64,000 bases of DNA, taken from Oligoflexia bacterium (GTDB taxonomy: Bacteria; Bdellovibrionota; Bdellovibrionia; JABDDW01). The notes under the pieces are model-generated. The model had not been told where the DNA came from. It saw only the letters and a list, made by a program, of their open reading frames with translations, and did no database searches. The DNA lies in contig JADJXN010000014.1 of assembly GCA_016715815.1 (NCBI GenBank), forward strand, positions 171,767 to 235,766, given 5' to 3'. The translations under genes were made by a program, and so were the position numbers. Shown here piece by piece: positions 39,651-57,723 of this stretch. Numbering within the stretch: the first letter of the stretch is position 1; each line of letters opens with the position of its first letter.

Positions 39651-39662
39651 CCATATCCTCTT

Positions 39663-39989: not shown

Positions 39990-40084
39990 GGGTTTCTTAT
40001 AGCTAAATTGACATGATTTGTCTAGGTAAAGAGAGATTACACTTGCCCCGTGGGCTTTGTTTTAATAGGCTTACGCTTACTTAT

Positions 40085-41221: not shown

Positions 41222-41233
41222 GTTGACCTTTAT

Positions 41234-42247: not shown

Positions 42248-42261
42248 GAAAGAGAAGAGCT

Positions 42262-43212
42262 TTGAAGGTTATTGTTACAGGTGGAGCAGGTTTTATTGGA
42301 AGCCATCTTTGTTTAAGGCTTTTAGAAGCAGGCCAAGAAGTTATAGCTATTGATGATTTAAGCTTAGGGCAAAAAAAATATCTGGACCCATGTTTTAAAT
42401 TTAAAAAATTTAAATTTGTAAAAGAAGATTTAACAAAATTTAATAGAATTAAAAAATTTTTTAAAAATGTACATAGAGTTTGGCATTTAGCCGCCAATTC
42501 AGACATTTTAGCAGGGGCTAAATCAACAGATAGAGATTTAAAAATTGGAACCATTGCAACTTATAATGTTTTAGAAGCTGCAAGACTAAATAAAGTTAAG
42601 GAATTTGTTTTTTCATCAACAAGTGCTATTTATGGTGAGGCTGAGATTAAACCAACCCCTGAAAACTATGGCCCACTTTTACCAATTAGTTTTTACGGTG
42701 CAAGTAAACTTGCCTGCGAGGCTTTAGCTACAGCGTTTTCCCATAATTTTGAAATGAAGGTTTGGATTTACCGCTTTGCCAACATAGTTGGCCCGCATAC
42801 AACTCATGGAGTAATTCATGATTTTATTAAAAAACTGAAAAAAAATCCAAGAGAGCTTGCCATTTTAGGTAATGGCCAGCAGGCAAAAAGTTATTTACAC
42901 GTGAATGATTGCATAAATGCCATGATCTTTGGTTTAGAAAATGTATCTAATGAGGTTAATTTATTTAACCTTGCATCAAGTGGTGTTTGCCAAGTAGATA
43001 AAATTGCAGATTATGTCATTCAGGCTATGGGTCTAAAGGCCCAGAAGAAGTACTCAGGTGGAATTCAGGGTTGGAAAGGTGATGTGGCTCAGGTTAAAAT
43101 ATCAGCTGAGAAACTTCACAACTTAGGCTTTAAGCCCACGTATGACAGTGAAGCGGCAGTAAAACTTGCGATAAGTGAAATTTTAAACGATAAAAAATAT
43201 GGAATGAATTAA
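42262..43212 (+). CDS. NAD-dependent sugar epimerase/dehydratase (SDR family)
   Basis: Rossmann motif VTGGAGFIGSHL; YxxxK present (YGASKLACE). Confidence 0.8.
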   Translation: MKVIVTGGAGFIGSHLCLRLLEAGQEVIAIDDLSLGQKKYLDPCFKFKKFKFVKEDLTKFNRIKKFFKNVHRVWHLAANSDILAGAKSTDRDLKIGTIATYNVLEAARLNKVKEFVFSSTSAIYGEAEIKPTPENYGPLLPISFYGASKLACEALATAFSHNFEMKVWIYRFANIVGPHTTHGVIHDFIKKLKKNPRELAILGNGQQAKSYLHVNDCINAMIFGLENVSNEVNLFNLASSGVCQVDKIADYVIQAMGLKAQKKYSGGIQGWKGDVAQVKISAEKLHNLGFKPTYDSEAAVKLAISEILNDKKYGMN

Positions 43213-43943
43213 TGCATAAACCACAAGTTGTCATTTTAGCAGGGGGACTGGGAACACGTTTAGGAGATATAACAAAAGAAATTCCTAAACCAATGGTTTT
43301 AGTTTCTGGAAAGCCATTTTTAGAATGGCAAATTGAGCATTTAAAAAAGCATGGTTTTACAAAAATTCTTCTTTTAACAGGTTATAAATCAGAACAGATT
43401 AAAAGTTATTTTGATAACGGTAAAAAATGGGGTGTTGAAATTGAATATAGTGTTGAAAAAGATCAAATGGGTACAGGTGGCGCTCTTTTACAAGCAAGGT
43501 ATCAACTAGAGGGAGATTTTTTATTATTATTTGGAGATAGTTTTTTACCGGTGGATTACCAGGGTATGCTAGCCATGCTTGACCACAATACCGATGTTGT
43601 CATGGCCGTTTATAATAATAAAGAAGACACAGGCGTTCCGTTTAATGTTTCTATAAATACAAACTTTTTTGTAGATACTTATTATAAAGAAGGGCTCTCT
43701 CTTCCAAAGCCTGAAAAGCCTTTAAAATATGTTGAAGCAGGCGCTTATTTAGTAAGAAAAAATGTGATCGCAGGGCAATCTTTAAAGTATTGTTCTTTTG
43801 AAGCTGAAATTTTAAAAGGTGTAATTAAAATGCATCGGATGAAGGCTTGGATTTCAGATTCGCGCTTTTATGATATTGGAACACCTGAGAGATTAAAATT
43901 ATTTGAAAGGAAGATTCGTGATTATTTCCCGAACGCCCTTTAG
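43212..43943 (+). CDS. sugar-1-phosphate nucleotidyltransferase (heptose/mannose-1-P guanylyl/cytidylyltransferase-like)
   Basis: N-terminal VVILAGGLGTRL nucleotide-binding motif. Confidence 0.75.
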   Translation: MHKPQVVILAGGLGTRLGDITKEIPKPMVLVSGKPFLEWQIEHLKKHGFTKILLLTGYKSEQIKSYFDNGKKWGVEIEYSVEKDQMGTGGALLQARYQLEGDFLLLFGDSFLPVDYQGMLAMLDHNTDVVMAVYNNKEDTGVPFNVSINTNFFVDTYYKEGLSLPKPEKPLKYVEAGAYLVRKNVIAGQSLKYCSFEAEILKGVIKMHRMKAWISDSRFYDIGTPERLKLFERKIRDYFPNAL

Positions 43944-44889
43944 ATTAAGTTTTGCCGGTGGTGGTTCAGATCTTGCTTCTTTTTACCAAAATCAAGAAGG
44001 GGCTGTGATTTCAACAGCCATTAATAAATACATGCACATTACTGTTAATAAGCGTTTTGATAACACCATACGCTTGAGTTATTCAAAAACAGAAATTTGC
44101 CAAAATGTAGATGAAATTGAACATAAAATTTTTAAGCACGTATTACAAAAATATGCCCCAGAGGGGGGGCTTGAGATTATTTCCATGGCTGATATTCCAT
44201 CAGGCACAGGGCTTGGTTCAAGCTCAAGCTTTACAGTAGCCCTCCTTCATGCTCTTAAAGGGTATAAAGGGATAATGGCTACTCAAGATGTGTTGGCAGA
44301 AGAAGCTTGTGATATTGAAATTGAAAAACTTCATGAGCCCATTGGCAAACAAGACCAATACATTGCTGCTTTTGGAGGGTTACAATTTATTCGCTTTTTG
44401 CCAAACGGAAAAGTTTTTGTTGAGCCTGTTGTATGCCTTGATAGTACAAAAAAAGAGCTTGAGGCAAGTTGTATGATGTTTTTTACAGGTCTCACTCGTG
44501 ATGCAAAAACCATTTTAAGCGAGCAAAAAACCAATACCACTGCAAAAACAGAGGTTTTAAAAGAAATGGTTAGTCATGCCCATGAGCTGAAAAAAATCTT
44601 AGAACAGGGTAAAGACTTAAAGCGCTTTGGTGAAATTTTAAACCAATCTTGGGAGCTTAAAAAAACCATGGCTTCAAACGTAAGTAACCCTCAAATAGAC
44701 CAGTGGTATGGCCAAGCTCTAGAAGCAGGGGCTTTGGGGGGTAAAATTTTAGGTGCTGGTGGCGGGGGCTTTCTTATGTTATTTTGCGAGCCTAAAAAGC
44801 AAATGAGGGTCAAAGAGGCATTAAAAAGCTTAAAAGTTTTTAATACCCAATTAGAGCCTCAAGGTAGTAGAATTATTTTTGTTGGTTAA
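43903..44889 (+). CDS. GHMP-family sugar kinase (D-glycero-D-manno-heptose 7-phosphate kinase-like); start may be GTG 43918
   Basis: GHMP ATP-binding motif PSGTGLGSSSS; context with SIS isomerase and nucleotidyltransferase. Confidence 0.75.
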   Translation: MKGRFVIISRTPFRLSFAGGGSDLASFYQNQEGAVISTAINKYMHITVNKRFDNTIRLSYSKTEICQNVDEIEHKIFKHVLQKYAPEGGLEIISMADIPSGTGLGSSSSFTVALLHALKGYKGIMATQDVLAEEACDIEIEKLHEPIGKQDQYIAAFGGLQFIRFLPNGKVFVEPVVCLDSTKKELEASCMMFFTGLTRDAKTILSEQKTNTTAKTEVLKEMVSHAHELKKILEQGKDLKRFGEILNQSWELKKTMASNVSNPQIDQWYGQALEAGALGGKILGAGGGGFLMLFCEPKKQMRVKEALKSLKVFNTQLEPQGSRIIFVG

Positions 44890-44912
44890 TTTTTTTAAAG
44901 GCAAGGTTAGTT

Positions 44913-45482
44913 TTGGAAGTAAAAGATTTTACAGAGAAATACTTAGAAGAAGCCCATAAGATTTTTGATATTTATAAAGGCCCTGAATTTGCCAAAGCCA
45001 TGGATTTAATGTGGCAGGCCTATAATGACAACAAACAGGTTTTTATTTTTGGCAATGGCGGATCAGCAGGCACCGCTCAGCACATGGTTAATGATCTTTC
45101 TAAAGGCACAAGCGTTGAGGGTAAAAAAAGGCTTCGTGTGATTGGTTTGGCAGATAATATGAGTTTATTAACAGCCTATGCTAATGATTGTGGGTATGAA
45201 GTAGTATTTGAGGAGCAATTAAAAAATTTATTAAACCCTGGGGATATTTGTATTGCTATTTCAGCAAGTGGGAATTCCCCAAATGTTGTTAAAGCGGTAG
45301 AGTATGCTCGTAAAAATAGCGCTAAAGTTATTGGCCTTGTTGGTTTTAGTGGTGGCAAACTAAAACCTTTAAGTGATGTTGCCATTTATTTTGAAACATA
45401 TAATTACGGAATTTGTGAAGATGCTCAGCTTATGTTTTCTCATTTAAGCTCACAATTTTTACATCAAAGAATTAAAGGTTAA
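44913..45482 (+). CDS. gmhA: SIS-domain phosphoheptose isomerase
   Basis: FGNGGSAGTAQH and ISASGNSPNV SIS motifs. Confidence 0.75.
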   Translation: MEVKDFTEKYLEEAHKIFDIYKGPEFAKAMDLMWQAYNDNKQVFIFGNGGSAGTAQHMVNDLSKGTSVEGKKRLRVIGLADNMSLLTAYANDCGYEVVFEEQLKNLLNPGDICIAISASGNSPNVVKAVEYARKNSAKVIGLVGFSGGKLKPLSDVAIYFETYNYGICEDAQLMFSHLSSQFLHQRIKG

Positions 45483-45851
45483 ATGCTTTACGGGGAAGAA
45501 ATAATTAAAAATGCCAAGCTTGAAGCCTTTGATAATAGAACAACCCATAGACGCTATTGGGTAGAGTTTGATTGCCCCGAGTTTACTTGCGTTTGTCCCA
45601 AAAGTGGGTTTCCTGATTTTGCGACGATCAAAATCCGCTACTCTCCTGATAAAAAATGTGTGGAATTAAAAAGTCTAAAACTTTATATCAATGGTTTTCG
45701 GGATAAAAAAGTATTCCACGAAGATGTAACCAACAACATTATGGATGATTTAATAATGCTCCTTGACCCTTGGGAAATTGAAGTGATTGGGGACTTTAAT
45801 GTTCGAGGGAACATTAAAACCGTTATCAAAGCGCACCACAAAAAGGGCTGA
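45483..45851 (+). CDS. queF: NADPH-dependent 7-cyano-7-deazaguanine reductase
   Basis: QueF motif EFTCVCPKSGFPDF and downstream E(S/L)K...H region. Confidence 0.85.
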   Translation: MLYGEEIIKNAKLEAFDNRTTHRRYWVEFDCPEFTCVCPKSGFPDFATIKIRYSPDKKCVELKSLKLYINGFRDKKVFHEDVTNNIMDDLIMLLDPWEIEVIGDFNVRGNIKTVIKAHHKKG

Positions 45852-45962
45852 TCAGAGTCATTTTTACACCACATGCAAACTCCTGTAATTGTTAAATAAG
45901 TTTTAAAGTTGGCAAAGCCTTTGCTATAAACACTCTCGTTAACCAAAAGAAAAGCCTACCAA

Positions 45963-46847
45963 ATGGGAGGAAAAATGAAAACATTTTTAATTTTAACAGT
46001 TTTACTAAGTACACAGTTAAGTTTTGCTAGCGATTGTAGCTCTCGCCGCGGTTCAAGTGGAGGGGGTGCTGTAATTGGCGGAATTATTGGTGGCATTATT
46101 GGCCATCAAATTGGCAGTGGCCGCGGAAATGACGTAGCCACAGTTGTTGGTGCCATTGGTGGGGCTATCATTGGTGGAGAACTTGGTTGTGAGATGGAAG
46201 AGCGAGAGATGCAAGAGATTTCAAGAGTACATAGAGAGTACGCTTGGAGTAATGAGCCCTACGCGCGCCGCTGGAGTACAAACCGCTTTGATGGCGAAAT
46301 TAGCTATGGCCGTCGTGGACATTATTCTTACAACCGCAACCGTTTAAACTGCCGCGAGTATACAAGTGTAGTTCGCTATTATGGCCGTACAGAAACAACT
46401 TATGGAGTTGTTTGCCAATACCCAGATGGGTCTTATAGAGATGTTGAAAGCCGTAGTGTGACTTATATTTCTGATGAGTACCCAGCTCCTAGAAAACCAA
46501 ATTATAATAGAGGCAGAAGTAGTTACCAAAGGCCATACAGAGCTGGTGTTTTAACTGAAGCAGAATTTTTTGATGTAAAAAGTAGTGTTGATCGTGAATC
46601 AAGCGATTACTATAAAGTTGAGGTAATTAAAACACGGGTGAGATACTTAAATTCCATCAATAAACAAATTACTCTGGGACAAACTGCTGTATTAGTAAGT
46701 ACAATTAGTAGCGACTATTATAAACTTCAAGCTGTAAAAGCATTAAAGCCAGTTATATTGCCAAATAGCGGTAGTTATGACGATGTTGTGAGTACAATTA
46801 GTAGCCAATACTATAGAAGTGAGGCTTTAAAAGTACTTTTAAATTAA
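45963..46847 (+). CDS. secreted glycine-zipper protein with C-terminal triple YYK repeat
   Basis: Signal peptide, GGxIGGIIGGIIG glycine zipper, three SxYYKxxAxKxL repeats. Confidence 0.6.
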   Translation: MGGKMKTFLILTVLLSTQLSFASDCSSRRGSSGGGAVIGGIIGGIIGHQIGSGRGNDVATVVGAIGGAIIGGELGCEMEEREMQEISRVHREYAWSNEPYARRWSTNRFDGEISYGRRGHYSYNRNRLNCREYTSVVRYYGRTETTYGVVCQYPDGSYRDVESRSVTYISDEYPAPRKPNYNRGRSSYQRPYRAGVLTEAEFFDVKSSVDRESSDYYKVEVIKTRVRYLNSINKQITLGQTAVLVSTISSDYYKLQAVKALKPVILPNSGSYDDVVSTISSQYYRSEALKVLLN

Positions 46848-48460
46848 ACATAAACCCAAAAGCCCTTCATGACGGTGTTTCTCTCTAAGGGGAACTCAAA
46901 ATCAAGTGGAGGGTGGGTTTTTTCAATACGAATATAGCTTAGGCCGGCATCAAGAGCGGCCTTTTCTATTTTTAAAGCTACATCAGAGCTTTCAAGGCCC
47001 TCATCATTAAAAGTAAGTAATAACCTGCCTTCTTGTTCTAAGCATAAAAAGGCATTTTTTAATAATTCTTCAATTTGCTCACTTAATTTAAAAGTGCCAT
47101 GCTTTCCTCTGGAAAATGTGGGGGGATCAATAATAATTAAATCAAATTTTCTTTTTCTGCGTACACAAGCTTGTAGGAAAAACAAACTATCAGCGGTGAA
47201 GAATTCATATTTGTCAGGGTCTAAATCATTAAGCTTAAAATTATTTTTACCCCACTCTAAAGAGCTTTGTGAGGTATCAACACTGACAACTTCAGCTGCA
47301 CCACCAAGGGCTGCACATAAGCTAAACCCGCAGGTGTAGCTAAAAAAATTGGCTACTTTTTTCCCATGTGTTGATTGCAGAATTTCTAGTCTGTGATCTC
47401 TTTGATCTAAAAATAAACCAGCACTCATGCCTTGGGCGTGGCGCATATCAAAATTTATGTCATTTTCTTTTATTTGCCACTGTAGTGGCATATTAGTTGA
47501 TGCTTGAATATTTATTTTAGTTTCTTCATTTAGGTTTTTTATATTTCCTCTTTCTTGCATTTGCCTAATAAACCAATATTTGGTGTTTGAAACGTTCATA
47601 AAAAAATCAATCAAACTTTCAGATAGGCTTTCATTGGTTTGGGAATAATTCATGATTTGTAAAACATCACCAAGTTTTTCAATGCAGAGTTTATTTTTCT
47701 CAAACCATTCACGATGCATAAGCCTATAGGAATTAGTTTTTTCAAAAAATAAAAAACGGCGGCGATCTAAGCTTATTAAAAACTGCATGGCAAGTGTGCG
47801 ATCTGCTTTATGAAGATTTAAAAATTTTTTTTCTAATTCTTGATCCATTAAAAATGCTTGCGGCAAGGGGGAATTAATTTTTGTTTTATCTATTTGAAGT
47901 TCATAAGAGTGTAACATAAGCCTTGGGTACGCAGCTCCCCCGTGAAGTGGATCACCTAAAATGGGAATGCCAGAAGCCTCAGCGTGAATTCTGATTTGAT
48001 GGGTTTTGCCGGAGTGAATTTCAGCCTCATATATAAAACCTAAAGAATTTTTGCCTATTTTAGCAAATGTGGTGTGGCTATTATTTTCCCCTTTAACTAA
48101 GCCAAATTTATGATTACCTGTTTTTTCTATGCGGCCTTCATAGGACCAAAGGTTTTGCTTAAATTCATTCTCAGAGATTAAAACATATTTCTTAACACTC
48201 TCTTTGAGCTTATTACTCCAAGGCTCAACCCCCTCAGCATTTGTGGTGCAAAGAAGACACCCTGATGTGGTGTTATCAAGCCTGTGTACGGCCCAAAGCT
48301 TTTCACCCAAAAGCTTTTCACAAACCTCTGTAAAGCCAAGCGTTGCACCACTGTCAGGCGTATGGGTAGACATGCCTGCAGGCTTGTCTAAAATAATGGC
48401 AGATTCGAAGCTGCGTAGAATCATATTTATTTTCTCTGTAATATTAGAAAGATACTGCAC
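46844..48460 (-). CDS. fusion protein: RluA-family pseudouridine synthase (N) + RlmI-like class I SAM methyltransferase (C)
   Basis: N-terminal HRLDNTTSGCLL (PUS catalytic Asp motif); C-terminal GLFLDQRDHR, SYTCGFS, IIIDPPTF. Confidence 0.75.
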   Translation of the reverse strand: MQYLSNITEKINMILRSFESAIILDKPAGMSTHTPDSGATLGFTEVCEKLLGEKLWAVHRLDNTTSGCLLCTTNAEGVEPWSNKLKESVKKYVLISENEFKQNLWSYEGRIEKTGNHKFGLVKGENNSHTTFAKIGKNSLGFIYEAEIHSGKTHQIRIHAEASGIPILGDPLHGGAAYPRLMLHSYELQIDKTKINSPLPQAFLMDQELEKKFLNLHKADRTLAMQFLISLDRRRFLFFEKTNSYRLMHREWFEKNKLCIEKLGDVLQIMNYSQTNESLSESLIDFFMNVSNTKYWFIRQMQERGNIKNLNEETKINIQASTNMPLQWQIKENDINFDMRHAQGMSAGLFLDQRDHRLEILQSTHGKKVANFFSYTCGFSLCAALGGAAEVVSVDTSQSSLEWGKNNFKLNDLDPDKYEFFTADSLFFLQACVRRKRKFDLIIIDPPTFSRGKHGTFKLSEQIEELLKNAFLCLEQEGRLLLTFNDEGLESSDVALKIEKAALDAGLSYIRIEKTHPPLDFEFPLERNTVMKGFWVYV

Positions 48461-48671
48461 TTGGGCTATATTGTCTTTAAGGTTTTTTTTAAAAATCTTA
48501 AATATTTCTTAAATTTTGCTTTACCTGGTTTGGATTATTCTTTCTAATAATTGTAGGGGAAGTTTTTAACTTAGAAACTGCAGGGAGAGGGGTTTACGAG
48601 AAAAGTTTGGATAGAACTAGCTCGGTGCCCATGGATGGGCAATCTCTCTATAATAAAATAAACCAAGGTAC

Positions 48672-49151
48672 ATGACCAAAAAGCAAATCCAAGATAATAA
48701 AGAGTTAGTATTTCAAAAAGTAGGCATTTTTGTTGATGCTGAAAATATTGAAACCTCAGGACTAAAACACCACGGCGGAAGAACTGATTATAAAAAAATT
48801 CTTGAAAACGTTGGTGATAGAGAAATTTTAAGAATTATTTATTACAAGCCTGAGTTTAAAGAAATGTCTGAGGATTTTATTTCCTTTTGGAAAAGCCTAG
48901 GTGGGGAGATTAAGCGCCCAGCTAAAAATGCAGATTGCTTTTTAATTATTGATGCAGTCACCATGGCAGAAAAGCTAGATGTAGCTATAATTTTAGGTGG
49001 TGATAAAGACTACATGCCTTTAATTTGGTATTTAAAATCCAGAGGCTGCCGTGTGGAGATTTGGTCTTGGCCAGAAGCTACAAGCCAAGACATGAAAGAA
49101 GCTGCTGATATTTTTATTCCGTTAAATAAATCATTTATTTTTGCTAGATAA
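48672..49151 (+). CDS. NYN/LabA-like domain protein (PIN-like predicted RNase)
   Basis: VGIFVDAENI ... LIIDAVTMAEK ... ILGGDKDYMPL acidic motif pattern of NYN domains. Confidence 0.7.
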   Translation: MTKKQIQDNKELVFQKVGIFVDAENIETSGLKHHGGRTDYKKILENVGDREILRIIYYKPEFKEMSEDFISFWKSLGGEIKRPAKNADCFLIIDAVTMAEKLDVAIILGGDKDYMPLIWYLKSRGCRVEIWSWPEATSQDMKEAADIFIPLNKSFIFAR

Positions 49152-49157
49152 TATTAA

Positions 49158-49415
49158 TTAGTTTGGCTTTTTAGTAAGTACAAGCCAGGTATGCCCAAAC
49201 TGTTCAACTGCCAATTGGTTTGCCCAATTTTTTAAAGGGCTTTGCTCTGATATTTTTTTAAAAAGTGCTATGAGCTCTGTTAACTCTTCACCTTGTTTAA
49301 GGGCAATGGCAAAGTTTTGAGCAGCCTCTGTGTCAGTCTTTGGCTTAAGAGTATTAGCCAAGGATATGTTTGCTGTAATTATAACGCTAAGAAAGAATGT
49401 AAATTGGTATTTCAT
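49158..49415 (-). CDS. small secreted hypothetical protein
   Basis: ORF with signal peptide only. Confidence 0.35.
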   Translation of the reverse strand: MKYQFTFFLSVIITANISLANTLKPKTDTEAAQNFAIALKQGEELTELIALFKKISEQSPLKNWANQLAVEQFGHTWLVLTKKPN

Positions 49416-49529
49416 ATGCTTTACTTATTGTAATGAATTAGACTCTTAAAGGGAGGCCAGAGGTGAATTGTGGCCTAAAATCTTGACTTAAGCATGAGTC
49501 TAGTCCAGATTCTTAAGATTCTCTCAAAT

Positions 49530-49606
49530 GCGGCAGTAGCTCAATTGGATAGAGCATCAGACTTCGGATCTGAGGGTTGAGGGTTCAAGTCCTTCCTGCC
49601 GCGCCA
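49530..49606 (+). tRNA. tRNA-Arg, anticodon TCG, with encoded CCA
   Basis: Hand-folded cloverleaf: acceptor GCGGCAG/CTGCCGC, D-stem GCTC/GAGC, anticodon stem TCAGA/TCTGA, loop CTTCGGA, T-loop TTCAAGT, discriminator G, CCA. Confidence 0.9.
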
Positions 49607-50020
49607 ATCAATAAGCCCTTTATAAGCTTGGTTTAGCTCATCCAAAGTCATTATAGAAAGTTTTGAATTTTTAAAGCATGTAATACCAAAAAGTTTTTTT
49701 GAATCTGTCATTTCTAAGTGGTGAGCGTTAATTTCGTAATGCTCCATGAGTTGTAAAACATAAACATCAGATTCTAATTTTTGACTTGGAATGTAAAATG
49801 AGCACACAATCTTTCTTCTAGCAACAGCTAGATCTGCATCAAATCCGGGGCTTTGTTTAACCCCATTTATAATCCAGCCTTTTTCAGCAGAAACGCTTTC
49901 TAGTACTTCTTTATTTAAAATTTTTGCGTAAAGCTCGCCTCTTTTAACTTGGGTAAGAGGTAAACTGTCTAATGCAAGTGAATGCTGAGCTACCAATAAA
50001 AGAATAATTAAAATTTTCAT
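49541..50020 (-). CDS. secreted hypothetical protein; last 22 codons are antisense to the tRNA
   Basis: ORF with signal peptide; C-terminal tail WRGRKDLNPQPSDPKSDALSN is the reverse complement of the tRNA. Confidence 0.45.
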   Translation of the reverse strand: MKILIILLLVAQHSLALDSLPLTQVKRGELYAKILNKEVLESVSAEKGWIINGVKQSPGFDADLAVARRKIVCSFYIPSQKLESDVYVLQLMEHYEINAHHLEMTDSKKLFGITCFKNSKLSIMTLDELNQAYKGLIDWRGRKDLNPQPSDPKSDALSN

Positions 50021-50038
50021 AAATTTTTAGTCCTTACT

Positions 50039-50758
50039 TTAAAAAGGTTGTGGGAGATCTAAAACTACAAGCACATTAAATTTTCCGTTAAAAGTAATAT
50101 CATAATTAGGGAACTTTCCAGAGGCCAATGTTCTTATCTCTAAAGTTTTATATTTTTCATAATAAGGCTTTATATCAACATTAGTTGTATGAAAGTGAAG
50201 TCTTTGGGTGTCTCTTATAAAATCTTTTTCTATTATGGCGTCTGCAAGAGGGATGTCTTCAAGAACTTCCCCGTTTTTGTCTCTAAAAATTAAAGAGACA
50301 TGAACATCTTTTAAAAAATTTAAATCATTAGGGTTTGAAGGGCCTAAAATATTTAAATTTTTCTTTTCTCTTTCAATCACTTCTAAATAACCGGCAGTAA
50401 GCTGCACAGATTTAACTAATTTTAAAACTTCTTCATCTGTCCAAGTGGAGCCTGGCTTTATAGGAATGTCATTTCTTACTGGTAGTGGTGGGATAAGAGC
50501 CTTTGCCATTGAAAGTGATAAGTTTATAGGCATCTCAAGGATTTCCCCAAAAAGGGGAATCCAACCCAAAAGTGTTCCTGTAAATTTTCTAATAAAGCTT
50601 TTTTGAACTTTAACGGGTTCAACATCACCTTGAATATTTAAACTAATGGCATTGAATTTAAGCTTTTTTGATCCTGCAATAGGGGTAATTTCATTTGTGT
50701 TTTTACACCCAAACGAAAATAAAACTACAAGAGATAAAAAGAGCTTTGCAAAATGCAT
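50039..50758 (-). CDS. hypothetical lipoprotein
   Basis: Lipobox LFSFGC. Confidence 0.55.
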   Translation of the reverse strand: MHFAKLFLSLVVLFSFGCKNTNEITPIAGSKKLKFNAISLNIQGDVEPVKVQKSFIRKFTGTLLGWIPLFGEILEMPINLSLSMAKALIPPLPVRNDIPIKPGSTWTDEEVLKLVKSVQLTAGYLEVIEREKKNLNILGPSNPNDLNFLKDVHVSLIFRDKNGEVLEDIPLADAIIEKDFIRDTQRLHFHTTNVDIKPYYEKYKTLEIRTLASGKFPNYDITFNGKFNVLVVLDLPQPF

Positions 50759-50779
50759 GGTGTCATATAAAAGGTTTTT

Positions 50780-52042
50780 GTGGGGAAAAACAACATTAAA
50801 ATTATTTTTTGTGCACTTATTTTTGCTGCTTTCAACTTAAAGGCAGATACTTCCACTCTTCCCAAAGGGGTGCGTGCTTTTGTTTATAAGCACATGAATG
50901 CGCAAGTGGGCGGTAAGTATGGGGAATCAGGTGCGCTTGGGAGTTATGATTTAAATGAAAAACTAACGCTAGATACTGTTTCTGGGTTATCTAAAAAAGT
51001 TGGTGAAGTTGTTACGCAAATTAAAAATACAAGCCCTGATATTTTTAATCACCTTGAAATTGGAAGTGTAAACATTAATGCAAAAATTGATGTCTCTGCC
51101 AATGCCTTTGCTTTAGCGTATGGAATTACAGATAAAATAATGGTTGCAGTGGCAGCTCCCTACTTAAATGCTAAAGTAAATCTTAAAGGTGGCTATTATG
51201 ATTCGGGCCAATTAAAACAAGCAGCAAATAGTTTAAGCCTCATGGAGGCAGATCCAAAAAATGCGGGGAATAAAGAAAACCTATCCATTATTAGGCAATT
51301 TATTAACCAGCTCCCAACACTAGAGTCCGCAAATCTTCAAGATATTTTAGTAAATTATTATGGTTATAAGCCTTTGGGTACCTGGGAAGGCTCAGGTTTT
51401 GGTGATGCATTATTTTTTATTCAATACCGCTATTTTGAAACTTCCTATTATAAAACAGCACTTAAACTTCAGGCAGATATTCCAACGGGTGGTACAAAAG
51501 ATCCGGATAACCTTGTAGCCATACCAATTACTAATGGCTATTGGGGAACAAGCCTTGAAAGCCTTAATGATTTTTTGCCATTTAGTTATGACAATTTTAT
51601 TATTTCACTTAATTCTAGGTTTAAATACAACTGGCCAACTCAAACAACAGTGAGGCTCGCGCCAAATAAAAGTTTTCCCTTAACTAACCAAAAAGAAACA
51701 CTAATGTGGGAGCCTGGCTCTGTTTGGTACTTGTCTTCTGCTCTGGATTTAAAGACAAATAATAAGTTTTTAGGAGCTTACGCTCAATACACATACTCTT
51801 TAAAGCTAGAAGATATTTATAGGGGTAAAAAAGCAGATTATGATTACAGCATTTTATCTCATAATTCAAACAGCCAAGCCCATGTGATGGAATTGGGGTT
51901 ATATTTTTCAACAGTGGGGTTTTATTTAAGCCAAAAATTTCCAATACCTTTTAAAGGTAGCATTTCTTATAGCCAAGTATTAGCTGGGGTGAACTCTGAG
52001 CTTATTCAGCTATGGAACCTGGGGGTGGAGATGTATTTTTGA
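50780..52042 (+). CDS. putative outer-membrane beta-barrel protein
   Basis: Signal peptide, alternating amphipathic segments, C-terminal aromatic residue (VEMYF). Confidence 0.55.
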   Translation: MGKNNIKIIFCALIFAAFNLKADTSTLPKGVRAFVYKHMNAQVGGKYGESGALGSYDLNEKLTLDTVSGLSKKVGEVVTQIKNTSPDIFNHLEIGSVNINAKIDVSANAFALAYGITDKIMVAVAAPYLNAKVNLKGGYYDSGQLKQAANSLSLMEADPKNAGNKENLSIIRQFINQLPTLESANLQDILVNYYGYKPLGTWEGSGFGDALFFIQYRYFETSYYKTALKLQADIPTGGTKDPDNLVAIPITNGYWGTSLESLNDFLPFSYDNFIISLNSRFKYNWPTQTTVRLAPNKSFPLTNQKETLMWEPGSVWYLSSALDLKTNNKFLGAYAQYTYSLKLEDIYRGKKADYDYSILSHNSNSQAHVMELGLYFSTVGFYLSQKFPIPFKGSISYSQVLAGVNSELIQLWNLGVEMYF

Positions 52043-52160
52043 GGAAAAACCAAAGTCTAGCTGTTCAAAGTAAGATTAATCGCAGTGTAAAGATTGCAGT
52101 ATCAAAATAAACAAAATCTATTTACTATATTACTTGTGCCCCCTTAAAAAGGTTTATTAA

Positions 52161-52823
52161 ATGCTAGATATTCAAACTTTATTAATGGAAGAGCTGGTCC
52201 AGTTTTTGGCTAATGGTTGCCAAAATGATGTTTTGCAAAGGCTGAGTAGTGGTTTTTTAGAACTTGGCTTTTCTAAAACAATCATTTTTCTTAAAACATC
52301 ATCTAGTAATGGTGAGTTAAAGCAAGTATTCCCTAATGAATTTGATTTTAAATTAAATTTTAAACCAAATTTAATTGAAAAAGAAAAAGAGCATTATTTT
52401 ATAGAAAAGCCTGCGGCATTTGGTGCAAACCAAGCTTTTGTTGTGATGCCTTTGAGTTGTAAAACCGCTTGCTTTGGCGCTTTAGTACTTCAGGCAGATG
52501 AAAAAACATTACAACGCTGGAGCGGAGATTATAAAAAAATTGGTTATGTATTTTCTTTATTTATGCAAAGTCTTGATTTAATTCAAAAGCAAAATTTAGC
52601 AGAGAATAAAAAGCTAAAAACCAAACTTTGCCTATTACATTTAAGTGATAAGCAAAGCACTATTGTAGAGCTATTATTGAATGGTAGGAGTAATAAGGAA
52701 ATTGCAAAATCTATTAACTTAACAGAGCAGGCAATTAAGTATCATGTTGGTAATATGCTTTCTAAATTCCAGTGTAAGAATAGAAAAGAGCTAAGATCAA
52801 AAATAAATGAGCTAATTGTTTAA
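52161..52823 (+). CDS. LuxR-family HTH transcriptional regulator with N-terminal putative ligand-binding domain
   Basis: C-terminal LuxR/GerE HTH: LSDKQSTIVELLLNGRSNKEIAKSINLTEQAIKYHVGNMLSKF. Confidence 0.7.
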   Translation: MLDIQTLLMEELVQFLANGCQNDVLQRLSSGFLELGFSKTIIFLKTSSSNGELKQVFPNEFDFKLNFKPNLIEKEKEHYFIEKPAAFGANQAFVVMPLSCKTACFGALVLQADEKTLQRWSGDYKKIGYVFSLFMQSLDLIQKQNLAENKKLKTKLCLLHLSDKQSTIVELLLNGRSNKEIAKSINLTEQAIKYHVGNMLSKFQCKNRKELRSKINELIV

Positions 52824-53203
52824 CCATTTCCTTCTTTGAGCTCACGCTCTTGAATTTCAAAGGCTTCAAGTAATTCTGTTGCTGTATTAAAATCAAATTT
52901 CTTAATAACACTTTTATAAAGTTTTTTATTATTCATGTATTGCTCTATAAGAATAAGTATTGAGGTGCGGTGGGGGTCAAAATTAAAAGTCAGTTTTGCT
53001 ACTCTTAAGGTTTCATAAACTAGTTCTTCAGTTTGAGGCTGTTTAGCCGCTTCTCTAATTAAATTAAGGTATTCATCATGTTGCTTTAGTTGTGTAGTTT
53101 GCTTTGTTATTTTTTTCATTTTTAAAATTAATGCAGGTGTAAGATCAACTTGAGCATTTGAAAAGTTAAACAAAAGTAAAATTGCTAAGAATATTTTTGT
53201 CAT
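52820..53203 (-). CDS. small secreted helical protein, translationally coupled to upstream gene
   Basis: Signal peptide; 4-nt start/stop overlap with the 53200..54222 gene. Confidence 0.5.
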   Translation of the reverse strand: MTKIFLAILLLFNFSNAQVDLTPALILKMKKITKQTTQLKQHDEYLNLIREAAKQPQTEELVYETLRVAKLTFNFDPHRTSILILIEQYMNNKKLYKSVIKKFDFNTATELLEAFEIQERELKEGNG

Positions 53204-54222
53204 ATATTTTCCTTATGTACCATAACCCCAATAAGCTCATAGTCATCGGTTTTTCTTTTTCGAGTTGATTGAATAATGGGGTTGGGTGTAACTAAATCAC
53301 TCACGTAGCGAATTTGGTTATTTCTCTCAACTTTAATTTCAGTATGTACCACCTTTGTTGGTCGGCCATTAACATATTTTCTATAGAGCAATATGGCCCC
53401 ATTGGGAGCATCATCTATGTTTTTAATTTTAGGGTAAAGATTGATAAAACCTCTGTTTTCAAAATGCTCTACTTTGGCATAGCTATGCTCACTACTATGC
53501 CAACTATTTTTTTCTTCTTGTGTGACAAACTCGCTGCAAAATAAAACATCCTTAACATGTTTATAGCAGTAACCCTTGGATTTACTTAAATCAGCATAGT
53601 TTGGCTTATGCAGTCTTTTTGCTTCACTACTTAGTGATCTTTCTAAACAAGGAATAATTTTATCTAATTTTTTTGTTTTTTTATGCTTTTGAACTACCTT
53701 TTCTGGTTGAGCTTTTGGGATAGTAGTTTTATTAATTATTTCTGGCTTATTAATATGGCTTTCAATTCTTGCTGTAGCCTCAACAATGGGGGCAGCTTGC
53801 TTTTGCGAAATCACTTGAGTGGATTTTGTGCAATTTGTACAGCTTTCTATGGGTTTGAGCTCTTCAAAATATGTTTGTTTTTGCAAAGTAAGATCAGTGT
53901 ATAGTTTTACAAAATGATTTTGTTTGGCATCTTTAACATTATGGTAAACCCAAGCCACTTTACCTTTTAAATTTCTATTTGGAGATGTGGTTATTTTTAA
54001 TTTAATACCATAGTTGCCAGAGTTTAATTGAACATAATCTAAAATTTCACCCTCAGTCTCTGCAGGCAACGGGCTCTCTTTTAAAACAACACTTGAGTCT
54101 ATAAAATTGGCTTCAGAACGTGCATTAACAGGGTTTAATATTTTAACGTAAGTAGGGCGCACACTTGCTTGTGAAAAATTACTCGCGAAAAAAAATAATA
54201 TTAAAAACACCAAGTGTTTCAC
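53200..54222 (-). CDS. secreted protein with C-terminal Cys/His hydrolase-like region (putative peptidase/amidase)
   Basis: Signal peptide; C-terminal GYCYKHVKDV ... VVHTEIKV resembling Cys-His catalytic arrangement; unverified. Confidence 0.5.
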   Translation of the reverse strand: MKHLVFLILFFFASNFSQASVRPTYVKILNPVNARSEANFIDSSVVLKESPLPAETEGEILDYVQLNSGNYGIKLKITTSPNRNLKGKVAWVYHNVKDAKQNHFVKLYTDLTLQKQTYFEELKPIESCTNCTKSTQVISQKQAAPIVEATARIESHINKPEIINKTTIPKAQPEKVVQKHKKTKKLDKIIPCLERSLSSEAKRLHKPNYADLSKSKGYCYKHVKDVLFCSEFVTQEEKNSWHSSEHSYAKVEHFENRGFINLYPKIKNIDDAPNGAILLYRKYVNGRPTKVVHTEIKVERNNQIRYVSDLVTPNPIIQSTRKRKTDDYELIGVMVHKENI

Positions 54223-54266
54223 AGATTTACTATCGGTTTAAAATAATAAATCTGTGAGTAGTTTAA

Positions 54267-55712
54267 CTACTTAATTACTATGCTTATTGTTTGTGGTTGG
54301 TTTTGCATTACAACTTTGGTCATGCCTACTCGACCATCAGCAAGTTTTGCTGAAACAATATACTCACCTGGGTCTAGTACTTTAAAAAACACACCAAAGT
54401 TATTTGTCCTAAGTGGCATTTCTTTTTTAAGATGCTTTATTTTATCCACTGCAATGGCTGCCACAAGTGGTGCTCTTTGAAGCTGGTTGAGGCCGTCCAC
54501 AACTTGCACCTTTAGCATGTTTTTGCCTGAACGATTCATAAAATATGTCCATGCCTTGCGGTGTTTTAACAAAGTGGGCTCTCTTAAGCTATAAGAAGGG
54601 TGAAAGTCTTGGTTAACTTCAAAAGTGTAGCTGAGTGTTCCGTAAGCTGCGTACATAAAATCCATGGAGCTTCCGTCAACGCCGTAAAGAATTTCCCAGG
54701 GTGCGCCGGGCTTGTAGTTACCACGGCCATCATCTCTAGGGAGAAGGCTTGCTAACTCATTAGCTACTTTTTTAATTAAAGCATTTTCAGAAGTTAAATC
54801 TCCGTAGCAGCCGTATGGGTGTAAAACAAGCTCACTATAAGAATGGTAAGATAAATATGCTGTTGGGCGCACGTGGTCTGTTAATGTATTAAAAGCTTTT
54901 ACTTCTGGTTCACTGGCAGCAGTGGCTCCTCGGTAAGTGTCTGAGCCTTGGCTGCCTGATGAGCCATTGCACTCCCCCCAGCGGTAATTATAATTTCTGT
55001 TTATATCTACCCCATGCACTCCATCAAGAGAGGAGCGAGCGTTTTTTCTCCACATGCTATTTGATGTCCAAACAATGTTTGAGCCATCAGGGTTAAGCAT
55101 GGGTATAACCCAAATATTCCAATTTTTTAAAATTTCTTGTCCCTGCGGGGTTTGTGCATTTTTTAAAACGGTTTCAGCAACATCAAAGACAACCTCAGGG
55201 GTCATGATTTCGCGGGCATGGTGAAGGCCATCAATGATAATGGTTGGTTTTTGAAAATACTCTGCAGAGTTATAATCTAAAGTAGTGGAAACAAGCATGG
55301 CTAAAACCGGGCGGCCCTGGTTTGATTTACCAAGTTCAATCACACGACTTAGTTGTGGATAAGCTTGATTTAGTGCACTTAATTTTGAAGTTAATGTTGT
55401 TGGGTTTAAAAAACGCTGATCAGGAGAAAAATCTGTCCTAACCATTTGGCCATCAAAGCCTTTTTCTTTTAAAAAGCTAAGGCCCTTTGTGGTGGTAATA
55501 ACCTCAATGGTTCTTTGAGCTTCGTTAATACCGGCGATATCAAACTCATACTTATTAAGCATGTTAACAACGTTTCTAACCTGCGTGGCTGTAACGTTAT
55601 TTGGAACCTTAATTTTATATCTTATTTGTGGTTCATTTTTTAACTGAGGCGCAAGTGCCGTTTGAGCGTTAAAGCCTAAAAGTAAAACCAAAAGAATGAT
55701 AATATTTTTCAT
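54267..55712 (-). CDS. secreted M14-family zinc carboxypeptidase
   Basis: Zn-binding motif GLHHAREIMTPE (HxxE) and downstream His region. Confidence 0.8.
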   Translation of the reverse strand: MKNIIILLVLLLGFNAQTALAPQLKNEPQIRYKIKVPNNVTATQVRNVVNMLNKYEFDIAGINEAQRTIEVITTTKGLSFLKEKGFDGQMVRTDFSPDQRFLNPTTLTSKLSALNQAYPQLSRVIELGKSNQGRPVLAMLVSTTLDYNSAEYFQKPTIIIDGLHHAREIMTPEVVFDVAETVLKNAQTPQGQEILKNWNIWVIPMLNPDGSNIVWTSNSMWRKNARSSLDGVHGVDINRNYNYRWGECNGSSGSQGSDTYRGATAASEPEVKAFNTLTDHVRPTAYLSYHSYSELVLHPYGCYGDLTSENALIKKVANELASLLPRDDGRGNYKPGAPWEILYGVDGSSMDFMYAAYGTLSYTFEVNQDFHPSYSLREPTLLKHRKAWTYFMNRSGKNMLKVQVVDGLNQLQRAPLVAAIAVDKIKHLKKEMPLRTNNFGVFFKVLDPGEYIVSAKLADGRVGMTKVVMQNQPQTISIVIK

Positions 55713-56844: not shown

Positions 56845-57165
56845 ATGCAAAAAGAATTTTTAGAACTTCACCAAAAAGCCATCAACATTGCCCAAAGCTT
56901 TCACAAAGCAGAATCAGATCTGATTGATATACTTCAAAAAATAGATCAACAAAAAATATTTTTAAAACTAGGTTTTGCCAGCCTTTTTGACTATGCGTTG
57001 AAAGCGTTAAAGCTCTCAGAAGCTAATAGTTCAAACTTTATAACTGTTGCCAGAAAATCAAAAACAATCCCTGAGCTAAAAGAAGCTATTAAGGAAGGTA
57101 GACTTAGTGTCTCAAAGGCAAGAAAGATAACTCCTGTGTTAACCCCAGAAAACAAAGACGTTTAG
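56845..57165 (+). CDS. DUF222-like N-terminal segment of HNH endonuclease (ends at in-frame TAG)
   Basis: Helical segment resembling DUF222; same frame as the following HNH ORF, separated by a single TAG. Confidence 0.5.
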   Translation: MQKEFLELHQKAINIAQSFHKAESDLIDILQKIDQQKIFLKLGFASLFDYALKALKLSEANSSNFITVARKSKTIPELKEAIKEGRLSVSKARKITPVLTPENKDV

Positions 57166-57171
57166 TTAAAT

Positions 57172-57723
57172 ATGGCTGAGGTGTTGCCAAAGGCAAAGCT
57201 AGAAAAGGAGATTGCCAAGGTTTTACCTGAAAAGGCGGTTCAAGAAAGAACAAGCTATGTCAGCCCTGAAAGAATCAAACTTACAGTTGGCTTATCTGAA
57301 AGAGCCCATGAGCTACTTAAAAGGGTTCAAGATTTGGAGTGTCAAAGAAGAAGAGCCTCTATTAATTTTGAGCAAACAATTGAGGCGGCTTTGGAGTTAT
57401 ACATAAAAAAGCTTGATCCAGTGGAGAAAGCAAAAGCACGGTTTGAATCTGAAGTTAAAACCACTGACGCGGCTGCTTCTGTCCCGGGACACATAGTGGG
57501 TTTGTATGGGTTTACAAGGGTGAGGTTGCCTCAAAGGTTAAAACACCAAATTTTTCTAAGAGACAAGGGGGAGTGTCAGCATAGAGATCAAAGTGGAAAT
57601 AAGTGCCACAACTCTAGATGGACTGAGGTTCATCACAAAACTCCGGTGAGCCATGGTGGGCAAAATGAATTAAATAACCTCACTACACTTTGTTTCGGGC
57701 ACCATAAACTTATGCATTTATAA
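57172..57723 (+). CDS. HNH endonuclease domain protein
   Basis: HNH motif CQHRDQSGNKCHN ... EVHHKTPVSHGGQNELNNLTTLCFGHH. Confidence 0.75.
   Translation: MAEVLPKAKLEKEIAKVLPEKAVQERTSYVSPERIKLTVGLSERAHELLKRVQDLECQRRRASINFEQTIEAALELYIKKLDPVEKAKARFESEVKTTDAAASVPGHIVGLYGFTRVRLPQRLKHQIFLRDKGECQHRDQSGNKCHNSRWTEVHHKTPVSHGGQNELNNLTTLCFGHHKLMHL

What the first reader, a model, noticed from the sequence alone, without database searches (positions are those of the whole stretch)
48672..54222. Accessory-looking block around tRNA-Arg(TCG): NYN protein, antisense-overlapping secreted gene, outer-membrane protein, LuxR solo
A hand-folded tRNA-Arg (49530-49606) sits between an NYN/LabA-like predicted RNase and a run of signal-peptide proteins of unknown function. 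One of these is a minus-strand ORF whose last 22 codons are antisense to the tRNA. The lipoprotein and outer-membrane protein genes are divergent with only ~21 bp between their starts, followed by a LuxR-type regulator with an uncharacterised N-terminal domain. tRNA genes are frequent integration sites, yet no integrase or direct repeat of the tRNA 3' end was found, so this could be an old or unconventional island encoding a surface/envelope module under LuxR-type control.
Basis: partly seen in the sequence, partly recalled or inferred. Interest (0 to 1): 0.5.

Follow-up and report, generated by a model that had tools for sequence, protein, structure and literature searches.

The report
tRNA-flank rearrangement, not an island

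Summary
Every observation is confirmed: tRNA-Arg(TCG) at 49530-49606, the NYN protein, an ORF whose last 22 codons are antisense to the tRNA, divergent lipoprotein and barrel genes 21 bp apart, a LuxR-type regulator, no integrase and no tRNA repeat.

The island reading mostly fails. I assembled a 20-kb scaffold from the nearest available relative, about 75% identical in DNA.
- It is collinear with the window from 38750 to 49606, the last base of the tRNA.
- It then diverges. The window has 432 bp holding as159. The relative has 5.85 kb with four unrelated genes.
- Collinearity resumes at the lipoprotein and barrel genes (52% and 69% aa identity).
- It diverges again after the barrel gene. The window has LuxR; the relative has a PilZ response regulator.

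NYN, sp85, the tRNA and the envelope pair are therefore positionally conserved. Only as159 and the LuxR-to-sp340 stretch vary. Codon usage matches the rest of the window.

as159 is a real gene that NCBI did not annotate. It belongs to a small family of secreted two-cysteine proteins. It has lost its own end and reads 20 extra codons into the tRNA antisense strand.

Ordinary overall, with two modest curiosities.

The parts
48672..49151 (+). NYN/LabA-like domain protein (159 aa). Positionally conserved core gene, not part of any variable segment.
   Evidence: Pfam NYN 2.3e-19. NCBI accession MBK9295149.1, named 'NYN domain-containing protein'. 90% aa identity and the same position in the relative.
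49158..49415 (-). sp85, an 85-aa protein with a predicted signal peptide and unknown function. Conserved in position.
   Evidence: NCBI locus tag IPM57_12055. An 84-aa orthologue, 55% identical, sits between NYN and the tRNA in the relative. Codon score 0.21.
49530..49606 (+). tRNA-Arg (anticodon TCG) with an encoded CCA end. Its last base is the synteny breakpoint.
   Evidence: ARAGORN and Rfam at 69.4 bits. The relative's tRNA differs at 4 positions, which form 2 compensatory stem pairs. blastn collinearity ends at 49606.
49541..50020 (-). as159, a real gene that NCBI did not annotate, encoding a small secreted two-cysteine protein. Residues 1-139 are the family domain. Residues 140-159 are read-through into the tRNA antisense strand.
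   Evidence: Codon score 0.35-0.40 against a training mean of 0.36. Five homologues, four full-length at 142-149 aa and 33-57% identical, end 3-8 residues after the aromatic residue aligned to W139. The sequence is absent from the 15-billion-protein collection, and the NCBI locus-tag series leaves it no slot. Its start is 18 bp downstream of lipo239 on the same strand.
49541..49606 (.). 66-nt sense/antisense overlap between the as159 3' end and the 3' two-thirds of the tRNA gene. The junction is TGG (W139) on one strand and CCA on the other.
   Evidence: Direct reading. The tail peptide matches only spurious antisense-tRNA ORFs in other genomes (P0057-P0065).
50039..50758 (-). lipo239, partner lipoprotein of the barrel. 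The Cys18 lipidation site is invariant across the family and is followed by an E-x-[IL]-x-P motif.
   Evidence: Family alignment. Orthologue 52.5% identical in the relative. Adjacent to the barrel gene in 23 of 25 loci. No Pfam, NCBIfam or PDB match. The structure model was unusable, pLDDT 47.
50759..50779 (.). 21-bp divergent intergenic region. Its first ~20 nt (GGTGTCATATAAAAG...) are conserved in the relative's 44-bp spacer.
   Evidence: Other divergent pairs have 140-175 bp here.
50780..52042 (+). omp420, an outer-membrane beta-barrel with the COG4313/FapF (12-stranded) fold and about 150 extra, mostly helical residues. It has the conserved N-terminal LPKGVR motif and a terminal Phe.
52161..52823 (+). 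LuxR/GerE-type helix-turn-helix regulator with an unassigned N-terminal 150 residues. Lineage-variable and not linked to the pair elsewhere.
   Evidence: GerE 6.9e-14. The only whole-length hit is a weak match to LasR, E 1e-3. No homologue in the relative's scaffold or in any of the 42 metagenome loci.
52820..54222 (-). sp127 (weak DUF4476 match) and sp340, two proteins with predicted signal peptides. They overlap by 4 nt and lie 44 bp downstream of the M14 carboxypeptidase gene (54267-55712), so all three are probably one operon.
   Evidence: This stretch has the lowest G+C in the block: 0.318 over 52161-54222.

Best explanation
This is a chromosomal stretch of an uncultured Bdellovibrionota-type bacterium (NCBI: 'Oligoflexia bacterium' MAG). 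Conserved and lineage-variable segments alternate along it, and the 3' end of a functional tRNA-Arg(UCG) gene is one rearrangement junction.

Shown:
- The left flank, through NYN, sp85 and the tRNA, is collinear with the nearest relative up to the tRNA's last base.
- Between the tRNA and the lipoprotein gene, this genome has 432 bp (as159). The relative has 5.85 kb with four unrelated genes.
- The lipoprotein and barrel genes are orthologous and collinear again.
- After the barrel gene the two genomes differ again.

Inferred:
- A deletion or other illegitimate recombination in this lineage joined the 3' end of as159 directly to the tRNA border. Selection forbids loss of any tRNA base, so the tRNA border is the limit.
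- The event removed the last 3-8 native codons and the stop codon of as159. Translation now continues for 20 codons on the antisense strand of the tRNA, to the first in-frame stop.
- as159 is probably co-transcribed with lipo239. The two are 18 bp apart on the same strand, and AAGGA lies 10 nt upstream of the as159 ATG.
- The lipoprotein and the COG4313/FapF-type barrel most likely form one outer-membrane channel complex. By analogy with that fold class, it would pass hydrophobic small molecules or an unfolded polypeptide. The lipoprotein would act as its plug, cap or cargo.
- The LuxR-type gene is merely a neighbour in this genome.
For: Collinearity. blastn gives 73-75% identity over window 38750-49606, ending at the tRNA's last base in 6 of the 7 contigs that carry the relative's NYN gene (the seventh ends before the tRNA), and resumes at 50406-52038 at 69%. 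The relative's scaffold was chained through 99.9-100% identical overlaps.

Protein identities to the relative: QueF 93%, NYN 90%, fused pseudouridine synthase/methyltransferase 79%, barrel 69.5%, sp85 55%, lipoprotein 52.5%.

Variable segments. The relative's 313-aa and 246-aa proteins (the two I tested) have no homologue in the 64-kb window. Earlier, ORFs of L003, which include its 525-aa protein and S9 peptidase, matched the window only at the lipoprotein-barrel pair.

as159. Its codon score equals that of known genes. Family members end 3-8 residues after the position of W139. W139 is TGG, the antisense of CCA. The tail matches only antisense-tRNA artefact ORFs.

No island hallmarks: no integrase, no tRNA repeat, no phage or plasmid match.

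Against: - Only one relative lineage could be compared. The direction of the change (deletion here or insertion there) is not established, and I could not find where synteny resumes to the right of the barrel gene.
- The junction rests on the MAG assembly. The independent short-read contig L001 starts 2 nt beyond the tRNA end, so it does not span the junction.
- G+C to the right of the tRNA is low for this window (1.7th percentile). That fits foreign origin for at least the LuxR-sp340 part.
- No physical or functional evidence links the lipoprotein to the barrel, and the lipoprotein could not be modelled (pLDDT 47).
- The window's lipobox (S-F-G-C) is atypical.
Confidence: 0.7

Rival explanations
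1. A degraded genomic island integrated at the tRNA. An element carrying as159, the envelope pair, LuxR, sp127 and sp340 would have integrated at the 3' end of tRNA-Arg. Its integrase and its downstream attachment-site repeat would since have decayed.
For: Synteny with the relative breaks exactly at the tRNA 3' end. G+C of 49607-54222 is 0.330, against a window mean of 0.366 (sd 0.017). LuxR, sp127, sp340 and as159 have no counterpart in the relative's scaffold.
Against: The lipoprotein and barrel genes, in the middle of the supposed island, are orthologous and lie on the same side of the same tRNA in the relative. They are a widely conserved pair. There is no integrase and no tRNA-derived repeat within the 14 kb to the window's right end or the 49 kb to its left. 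Codon usage and tetranucleotide composition are normal. There are no phage or plasmid matches. At most, the sub-segment 52161-54222 (or as far as 55712) could be a separate acquisition.
Confidence: 0.15
2. Assembly artefact. The metagenome-assembled contig would be mis-joined at the tRNA, so the as159-tRNA fusion would not exist in any cell.
For: The independent short-read contig L001 starts at window position 49608, 2 nt beyond the tRNA end. This is where a branch in the assembly graph would be expected. Every Logan contig of the relative that carries the NYN gene ends within about 2.2 kb of the tRNA.
Against: In the relative, the same tRNA is followed on the same side by the orthologous lipoprotein and barrel genes. 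So the tRNA-to-pair neighbourhood is ancestral. The join keeps as159 in frame, and the conserved aromatic residue is supplied by the TGG/CCA triplet.
Confidence: 0.07
3. Functional overlap. The tRNA-antisense tail of as159, or antisense transcription across the tRNA, would be selected, for example to couple tRNA-Arg(UCG) levels to expression of the lipo239-as159 operon.
For: as159 lies 18 bp downstream of lipo239 on the same strand. Its transcript must therefore cross the whole tRNA gene before reaching any hairpin.
Against: None of the five as159 homologues has the tail. The two whose contigs I could read (L053, L054) carry no tRNA gene next to the homologue. The tail sequence is the generic translation of antisense tRNA seen in spurious ORFs.
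Confidence: 0.05

Closest known systems
COG4313 / Phenol_MetA_deg (PF13557) outer-membrane channels, e.g. Pput2725 (PDB 4rl8) and SphA
   Different: The window protein has no Pfam or PDB sequence match. It is about 150 residues longer, with helices at 64-91 and 144-193. By topology these fall in extracellular loops 1 and 2, which is my inference. It has a near-obligate adjacent lipoprotein gene. No lipoprotein is mentioned in the COG4313 structure paper (0 occurrences).
FapF, the Pseudomonas functional-amyloid secretion channel (PDB 5o65)
   Different: The neighbouring genes in the window and in the other loci read carry no Pfam Fap domain. The model shows no N-terminal coiled-coil. Sequence identity is 9-13%.
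tRNA-linked genomic islands and integrative elements
   Same: The variable DNA begins exactly at the 3' end of a tRNA gene, and G+C is somewhat lower.
   Different: No integrase, no direct repeat of the tRNA end and host-like codon usage. The central genes are syntenic in the relative. The variable piece next to the tRNA is only 432 bp in this genome.
LuxR 'solo' regulators of the quorum-sensing type
   Same: C-terminal GerE/LuxR helix-turn-helix. No adjacent LuxI or receiver domain.
   Different: No match to any Pfam family, so none to the autoinducer-binding domain, in the N-terminal 150 residues. The only whole-length hit is a weak LasR alignment, E 1e-3. Not conserved next to the envelope pair.
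Spurious ORFs antisense to tRNA genes
   Same: The last 20 residues (RGRKDLNPQPSDPKSDALSN) are the standard translation of antisense tRNA. They match such ORFs in other genomes at 64-84% identity.
   Different: Here the tail is attached to a genuine conserved gene. The first 139 residues have real homologues and normal codon usage.

Membership tests
tRNA gene | Cloverleaf detected by independent tRNA models, with a defined anticodon | tested here: met
   ARAGORN tRNA-Arg(tcg). Rfam RF00005 at 69.4 bits against a gathering score of 29. Two compensatory stem changes against the relative's copy.
tRNA-integrated genomic island | Integrase or recombinase gene at one end | tested here: not met
   No integrase, recombinase or transposase domain in the predicted proteins I scanned between 37962 and 61841. 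The only nuclease-type gene nearby is an HNH endonuclease pseudogene at 56845-57723.
tRNA-integrated genomic island | Direct repeat of the tRNA 3' end at the far border | tested here: not met
   The 17-mer and 26-mer of the tRNA 3' end, with up to 3 mismatches, are unique in the 64 kb. No tRNA fragment in the permissive Rfam search. A far border beyond position 64000 cannot be excluded.
tRNA-integrated genomic island | Composition unlike the host genome | tested here: inconclusive
   G+C is 0.330, the 1.7th percentile. Tetranucleotide distance is at the 81st percentile, and the codon scores of all genes fall within the range of the window's long genes.
tRNA-integrated genomic island | Present or absent as one unit in related genomes | tested here: not met
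   The relative keeps the lipoprotein and barrel genes to the right of the same tRNA. It lacks as159 and LuxR, and has four other genes between the tRNA and the pair.
COG4313 / Phenol_MetA_deg (PF13557) | Match to the family's sequence profile | tested here: not met
   The window protein has no Pfam hit at E up to 0.1 and no NCBIfam hit. A profile of 49 relatives finds no PDB sequence. Only 2 of 49 relatives hit PF13557, best E 9e-5.
COG4313 / Phenol_MetA_deg (PF13557) | 12-stranded barrel fold | tested here: met
FapF amyloid secretion channel | Encoded in a fapABCDEF operon, with an N-terminal coiled-coil for trimerisation | tested here: not met
   The neighbours are a lipoprotein and unrelated genes in every locus. 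There is no long helix between the signal peptide and strand 1 in the model.
Bacterial lipoprotein (lipo239) | Signal peptide ending in a lipobox with an invariant Cys | tested here: met
   Cys18 is invariant in 12 aligned partners. Most have a canonical L/V-S/A-G/S/A-C lipobox. The window's S-F-G-C is atypical. Lipidation itself cannot be tested here.
Quorum-sensing LuxR family | N-terminal autoinducer-binding domain plus C-terminal GerE helix-turn-helix | tested here: not met
   GerE is met (6.9e-14). Residues 1-150 match no Pfam family, so the autoinducer-binding domain is not detected. The LasR alignment is weak, E 1e-3.
NYN domain nucleases | Match to the PF01936 profile over its full length | tested here: met
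   2.3e-19, covering profile positions 1-144 of 145. Catalytic activity was not tested.

The most novel reading that the evidence does not exclude
The lipoprotein and the COG4313/FapF-fold barrel would be an undescribed two-component outer-membrane machine of Bdellovibrionota-type, mostly predatory, bacteria. It could be a lipoprotein-gated channel for hydrophobic or prey-derived molecules. Alternatively, it could be a dedicated exporter that places the lipoprotein or a polypeptide on the cell surface. The two genes are almost always kept on opposite strands: 18 loci are head-to-head and 5 are tail-to-tail, and where I measured the tail-to-tail spacing the stop codons overlap by 4 nt.
Probability: 0.3. 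Interest if true: 0.55.

Novelty: new variant of a known kind. Interest (0 to 1): 0.3.

Why it matters
- It removes a false lead: a tRNA next to unknown secreted proteins is not an island unless comparison with relatives says so.
- as159 is a clean example of a real gene that standard annotation missed, plausibly because it overlaps a tRNA. It also preserves a rearrangement scar at single-base resolution.
- The lipoprotein and barrel genes form a well-defined, uncharacterised family pair. Some members come from lineages with cultivable relatives (Bacteriovorax). This gives envelope biologists a concrete target among the many unknown proteins of predatory bacteria.

Tried and rejected
- Genome-contig scan with the 538-aa fusion protein.
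- Word-indexed homologue search for as159. It found nothing and briefly suggested an orphan. The full HMMER scan overturned that.
- Word-indexed search for lipo239. It found only two proteins, so the structure model was poor (pLDDT 47) and I did not use it for fold search.
- The afdb50 fold library was unavailable.
- My early reading that the pair had moved to a different neighbourhood in the relative was wrong. Chaining the contigs showed it is still downstream of the same tRNA.
- I looked for orthologues of the downstream genes (BFD to HlyIII) in 90% clusters, to find where synteny resumes. None was found.
- Phage, plasmid, PHROG and PADLOC searches were negative.
- The sigma-70 promoter and terminator scan gave no more sites than shuffled sequence.
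- Rejected: NYN as part of a defence or mobile module. It has only weak PADLOC hits and is syntenic in the relative.
Full report
**Source and observation**

The window comes from a metagenome-assembled genome that NCBI labels 'Oligoflexia bacterium' (locus tags IPM57_120xx, a 332-kb contig). Its overall G+C is 0.366.

- tRNA-Arg(TCG) lies at 49530-49606 on the plus strand (ARAGORN; Rfam 69.4 bits). It is the only tRNA in the window.
- The 159-aa protein at 48672-49151 matches Pfam NYN at 2.3e-19.
- A 159-codon minus-strand ORF (49541-50020, here called as159) has its last 21 sense codons and its stop inside the tRNA.
- A 239-aa lipoprotein gene (50039-50758, minus) and a 420-aa barrel gene (50780-52042, plus, GTG start) are head-to-head with 21 bp between them.
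- A 220-aa protein (52161-52823) has a GerE/LuxR helix-turn-helix at residues 161-211 and nothing recognisable in its first 150 residues.
- No integrase domain was found in the genes I scanned between 37962 and 61841. The tRNA 3' end has no second copy in the 64 kb, even with 3 mismatches.

**The decisive comparison**

The first searches returned only distant relatives of the barrel gene, in apparently different neighbourhoods. That suggested a mobile pair, which turned out to be wrong.

The NYN protein's 90% cluster contained a second member from other samples (P0067). Its contigs (L055-L061) could be chained to L062 and to L003/L005 through 99.9-100% identical overlaps. This gave a 20,247-bp scaffold of the nearest available relative.

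The two sequences compare as follows:
- They are collinear at 73-75% DNA identity from window position 38750 to 49606. That covers FabH, the heptose-synthesis genes, QueF, the fused pseudouridine synthase/methyltransferase, NYN, sp85 and the tRNA.
- Position 49606 is the last base of the tRNA.
- The two tRNAs differ at four positions, which form two compensatory stem pairs. Both therefore look functional.
- Past the CCA end there is no similarity.
- Similarity resumes at window 50406-52038, the lipoprotein and barrel genes. It is 69% in DNA, 52.5% for the lipoprotein and 69.5% for the barrel protein.

Between the tRNA and the lipoprotein stop codon, the window has 432 bp, which is as159. The relative has 5,851 bp holding a 313-aa protein, a 246-aa barrel-like protein, a 525-aa protein and an S9 peptidase. 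The 313-aa and 246-aa proteins have no homologue in the window. ORFs of L003, which include the 525-aa protein and the S9 peptidase, matched the window only at the lipoprotein-barrel pair.

After the barrel gene, the window has the LuxR-type gene. The relative has a convergent PilZ response regulator.

The block is therefore a mosaic. NYN, sp85, the tRNA and the lipoprotein-barrel pair are positionally conserved. as159 and the LuxR-sp127-sp340 stretch are lineage-variable.

**Composition**

- Codon-usage log-odds for all block genes are 0.21-0.47. This is within the range of 32 long genes elsewhere in the window (mean 0.36, minimum 0.20).
- G+C to the right of the tRNA (49607-54222) is 0.330, the 1.7th percentile of same-size windows. 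Most of the drop comes from 52161-54222, at 0.318.
- The tetranucleotide distance is ordinary, at the 81st percentile.
- There is no DNA match to phages or plasmids and no PHROG or defence-system signal.
- Taken together, a separate old acquisition of the LuxR-sp340 part is possible. A single island from the tRNA onwards is not.

**The overlapping gene as159**

A word-indexed search found nothing. A full HMMER scan of 1.84 billion representatives then found five true homologues (P0053 to P0056 and P0058; four are full-length at 142-149 aa, P0054 is a 114-aa partial; 33-57% identical in the alignment). They have signal peptides and two invariant cysteines.

These homologues end 3-8 residues after an aromatic residue that aligns with W139 of as159. 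Codon 139 is TGG, the exact antisense of the tRNA's CCA. Residues 140-159 (RGRKDLNPQPSDPKSDALSN) are unique to this genome. They match only ORFs that are plainly translations of antisense tRNA in other genomes (P0057-P0065).

The as159 codon score (0.35-0.40) equals that of known genes, and the other five frames score negative.

The exact sequence is absent from the 15-billion-protein collection. In the NCBI record the locus tags run 12055 (sp85), then 12065 (lipoprotein), which leaves only 12060, for the tRNA. So as159 is a real gene that the annotation omitted, plausibly because it overlaps the tRNA.

as159 starts 18 bp after the lipo239 stop on the same strand. AAGGA lies 10 nt upstream of its ATG, so it is probably co-transcribed with lipo239.

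My reading, which is an inference, is that a deletion or other illegitimate recombination joined as159 to the tRNA border, possibly through the shared TGG/CCA triplet. The event removed the gene's native end and its stop codon.

The homologues whose contigs could be read (L053, L054) carry no tRNA gene next to them. The overlap is therefore not a family trait.

One caveat applies. The independent short-read contig L001 starts at window position 49608, so it does not span the junction. However, the relative has the same tRNA-to-pair order, which argues against a chimeric join.

**The envelope pair**

*Barrel.* The barrel protein models confidently (pLDDT 87.3, pTM 0.80).
- Foldseek agrees, with E about 5e-13 and a target-normalised TM-score of 0.75-0.80.
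- Both references are 12-stranded barrels. Pput2725 has an N-terminal segment that occludes the lumen and is proposed to take up hydrophobic molecules (PMC4493636).
- The window protein has no Pfam, NCBIfam or PDB sequence match.
- 2 of 49 relatives reach PF13557 at 9e-5, so this is a divergent branch of that superfamily.
- It carries about 150 extra residues, with helices at 64-91 and 144-193. By barrel topology these fall in the first two extracellular loops, which is my inference.

*Partner lipoprotein.* The partner has an invariant lipidation cysteine followed by an E-x-[IL]-x-P motif and usually ends in Phe. It matches no known family. It could not be modelled (pLDDT 47).

*Linkage.* I used 42 metagenome loci plus the earlier ones.
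- 23 of 25 distinct loci with a barrel score of at least 400 bits have the partner gene adjacent on the opposite strand.
- 18 of these are head-to-head and 5 are tail-to-tail. Where I measured the tail-to-tail spacing, the stop codons overlap by 4 nt.
- The two exceptions have 151 bp or less of upstream flank, so a partner there cannot be ruled out.
- Seven more distant barrels with ample flank on both sides have no recognisable partner.
- The divergent spacer is usually 140-175 bp. The 21 bp here and the 44 bp in the relative are unusually short, and they share a conserved 20-nt stretch.
- No LuxR, NYN, as159, sp127 or sp340 homologue lies near the pair in any of the distinct loci from other bacteria. 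tRNAs occur there only incidentally.

I infer a two-protein outer-membrane channel complex. Its substrate and the lipoprotein's role are unknown.

**Comparison with known systems**

- The region fails four of the classic island criteria: integrase, flanking repeat, unit presence or absence, and atypical codon usage.
- It shares with islands only the breakpoint at the tRNA 3' end.
- The barrel works like, and folds like, COG4313/FapF channels. It fails sequence-profile membership and lacks the Fap operon context.
- The LuxR-type protein is not a demonstrable quorum-sensing LuxR.

**Verdict**

The island interpretation is mostly refuted, although the tRNA end is a genuine rearrangement junction. 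Two things are worth keeping: an unannotated gene fused into the antisense strand of a tRNA, and a conserved, uncharacterised lipoprotein and barrel pair. Overall interest is modest.

Noticed in passing
window 56845-57723 (+): An HNH endonuclease gene split by an in-frame TAG at 57166-57168, where the intact copy has Trp. It is 76% identical over 341 aa to an intact paralogue (MBK9294380.1) on another contig of the same MAG. This is a multi-copy, possibly mobile, HNH gene, and this copy looks like a pseudogene.
   Followed up: partly
window 46844-48460 (-): A single 538-aa protein fuses an RluA-type pseudouridine synthase domain (residues 22-162) to an RlmI/RlmK-like class I SAM-dependent RNA methyltransferase domain (residues 250-495). 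The fusion is conserved in the relative (536 aa, 79% identity).
   Followed up: no
window 45963-46847 (+) and 52820-53203 (-): Two secreted proteins near the block carry DUF4476-like sequence. In p294 it appears as a tandem 93-bp repeat (46695-46833) together with a glycine zipper. The relative's counterpart of p294 is only 149 aa and 39% identical, so this is another fast-changing secreted protein in an otherwise collinear stretch.
   Followed up: no
loci L009, L015, L016, L020, L027: In one, mostly marine, subgroup the lipoprotein and barrel genes are tail-to-tail, with stop codons overlapping by exactly 4 nt. In none of the 23 loci with an adjacent partner are the two genes on the same strand. 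That is unusual for presumed partners.
   Followed up: partly
window 50759-50779 and L003 4825-4868: The first ~20 nt next to the lipoprotein start (GGTGTCATATAAAAG.TTTTT) are conserved between the window and the relative, although the spacers are only 21 and 44 bp. The stretch contains a TATAAA box and could be a shared promoter or operator. The ATG start of the relative's barrel gene aligns with an ATT codon in the window.
   Followed up: no
alignment A1 (barrel family), helical insertion: 15 of 49 family members give weak Pfam RhoGAP hits (best E 0.0015, well below the curated threshold). I did not map the hits, though the helical insertions are the likeliest region. Probably spurious, but it recurs.
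   Followed up: no
L001 (Logan contig from SRR11674018) = window 49608-52673: The independent short-read contig of this same sequence starts 2 nt past the tRNA end. The relative's Logan contigs also tend to end near the tRNA. This suggests an assembly-graph branch at the tRNA, from several tRNA copies that share the 3' end or from strain variation in what follows it.
   Followed up: no
window 53200-55712 (-): The M14 zinc carboxypeptidase gene (54267-55712, Pfam 2.7e-59), sp340 and sp127 are spaced like one operon: a 44-bp gap, then a 4-nt overlap. sp127 in turn overlaps the end of the LuxR-type gene by 4 nt, tail-to-tail. sp340 has no Pfam, NCBIfam or PDB match at all.
   Followed up: no
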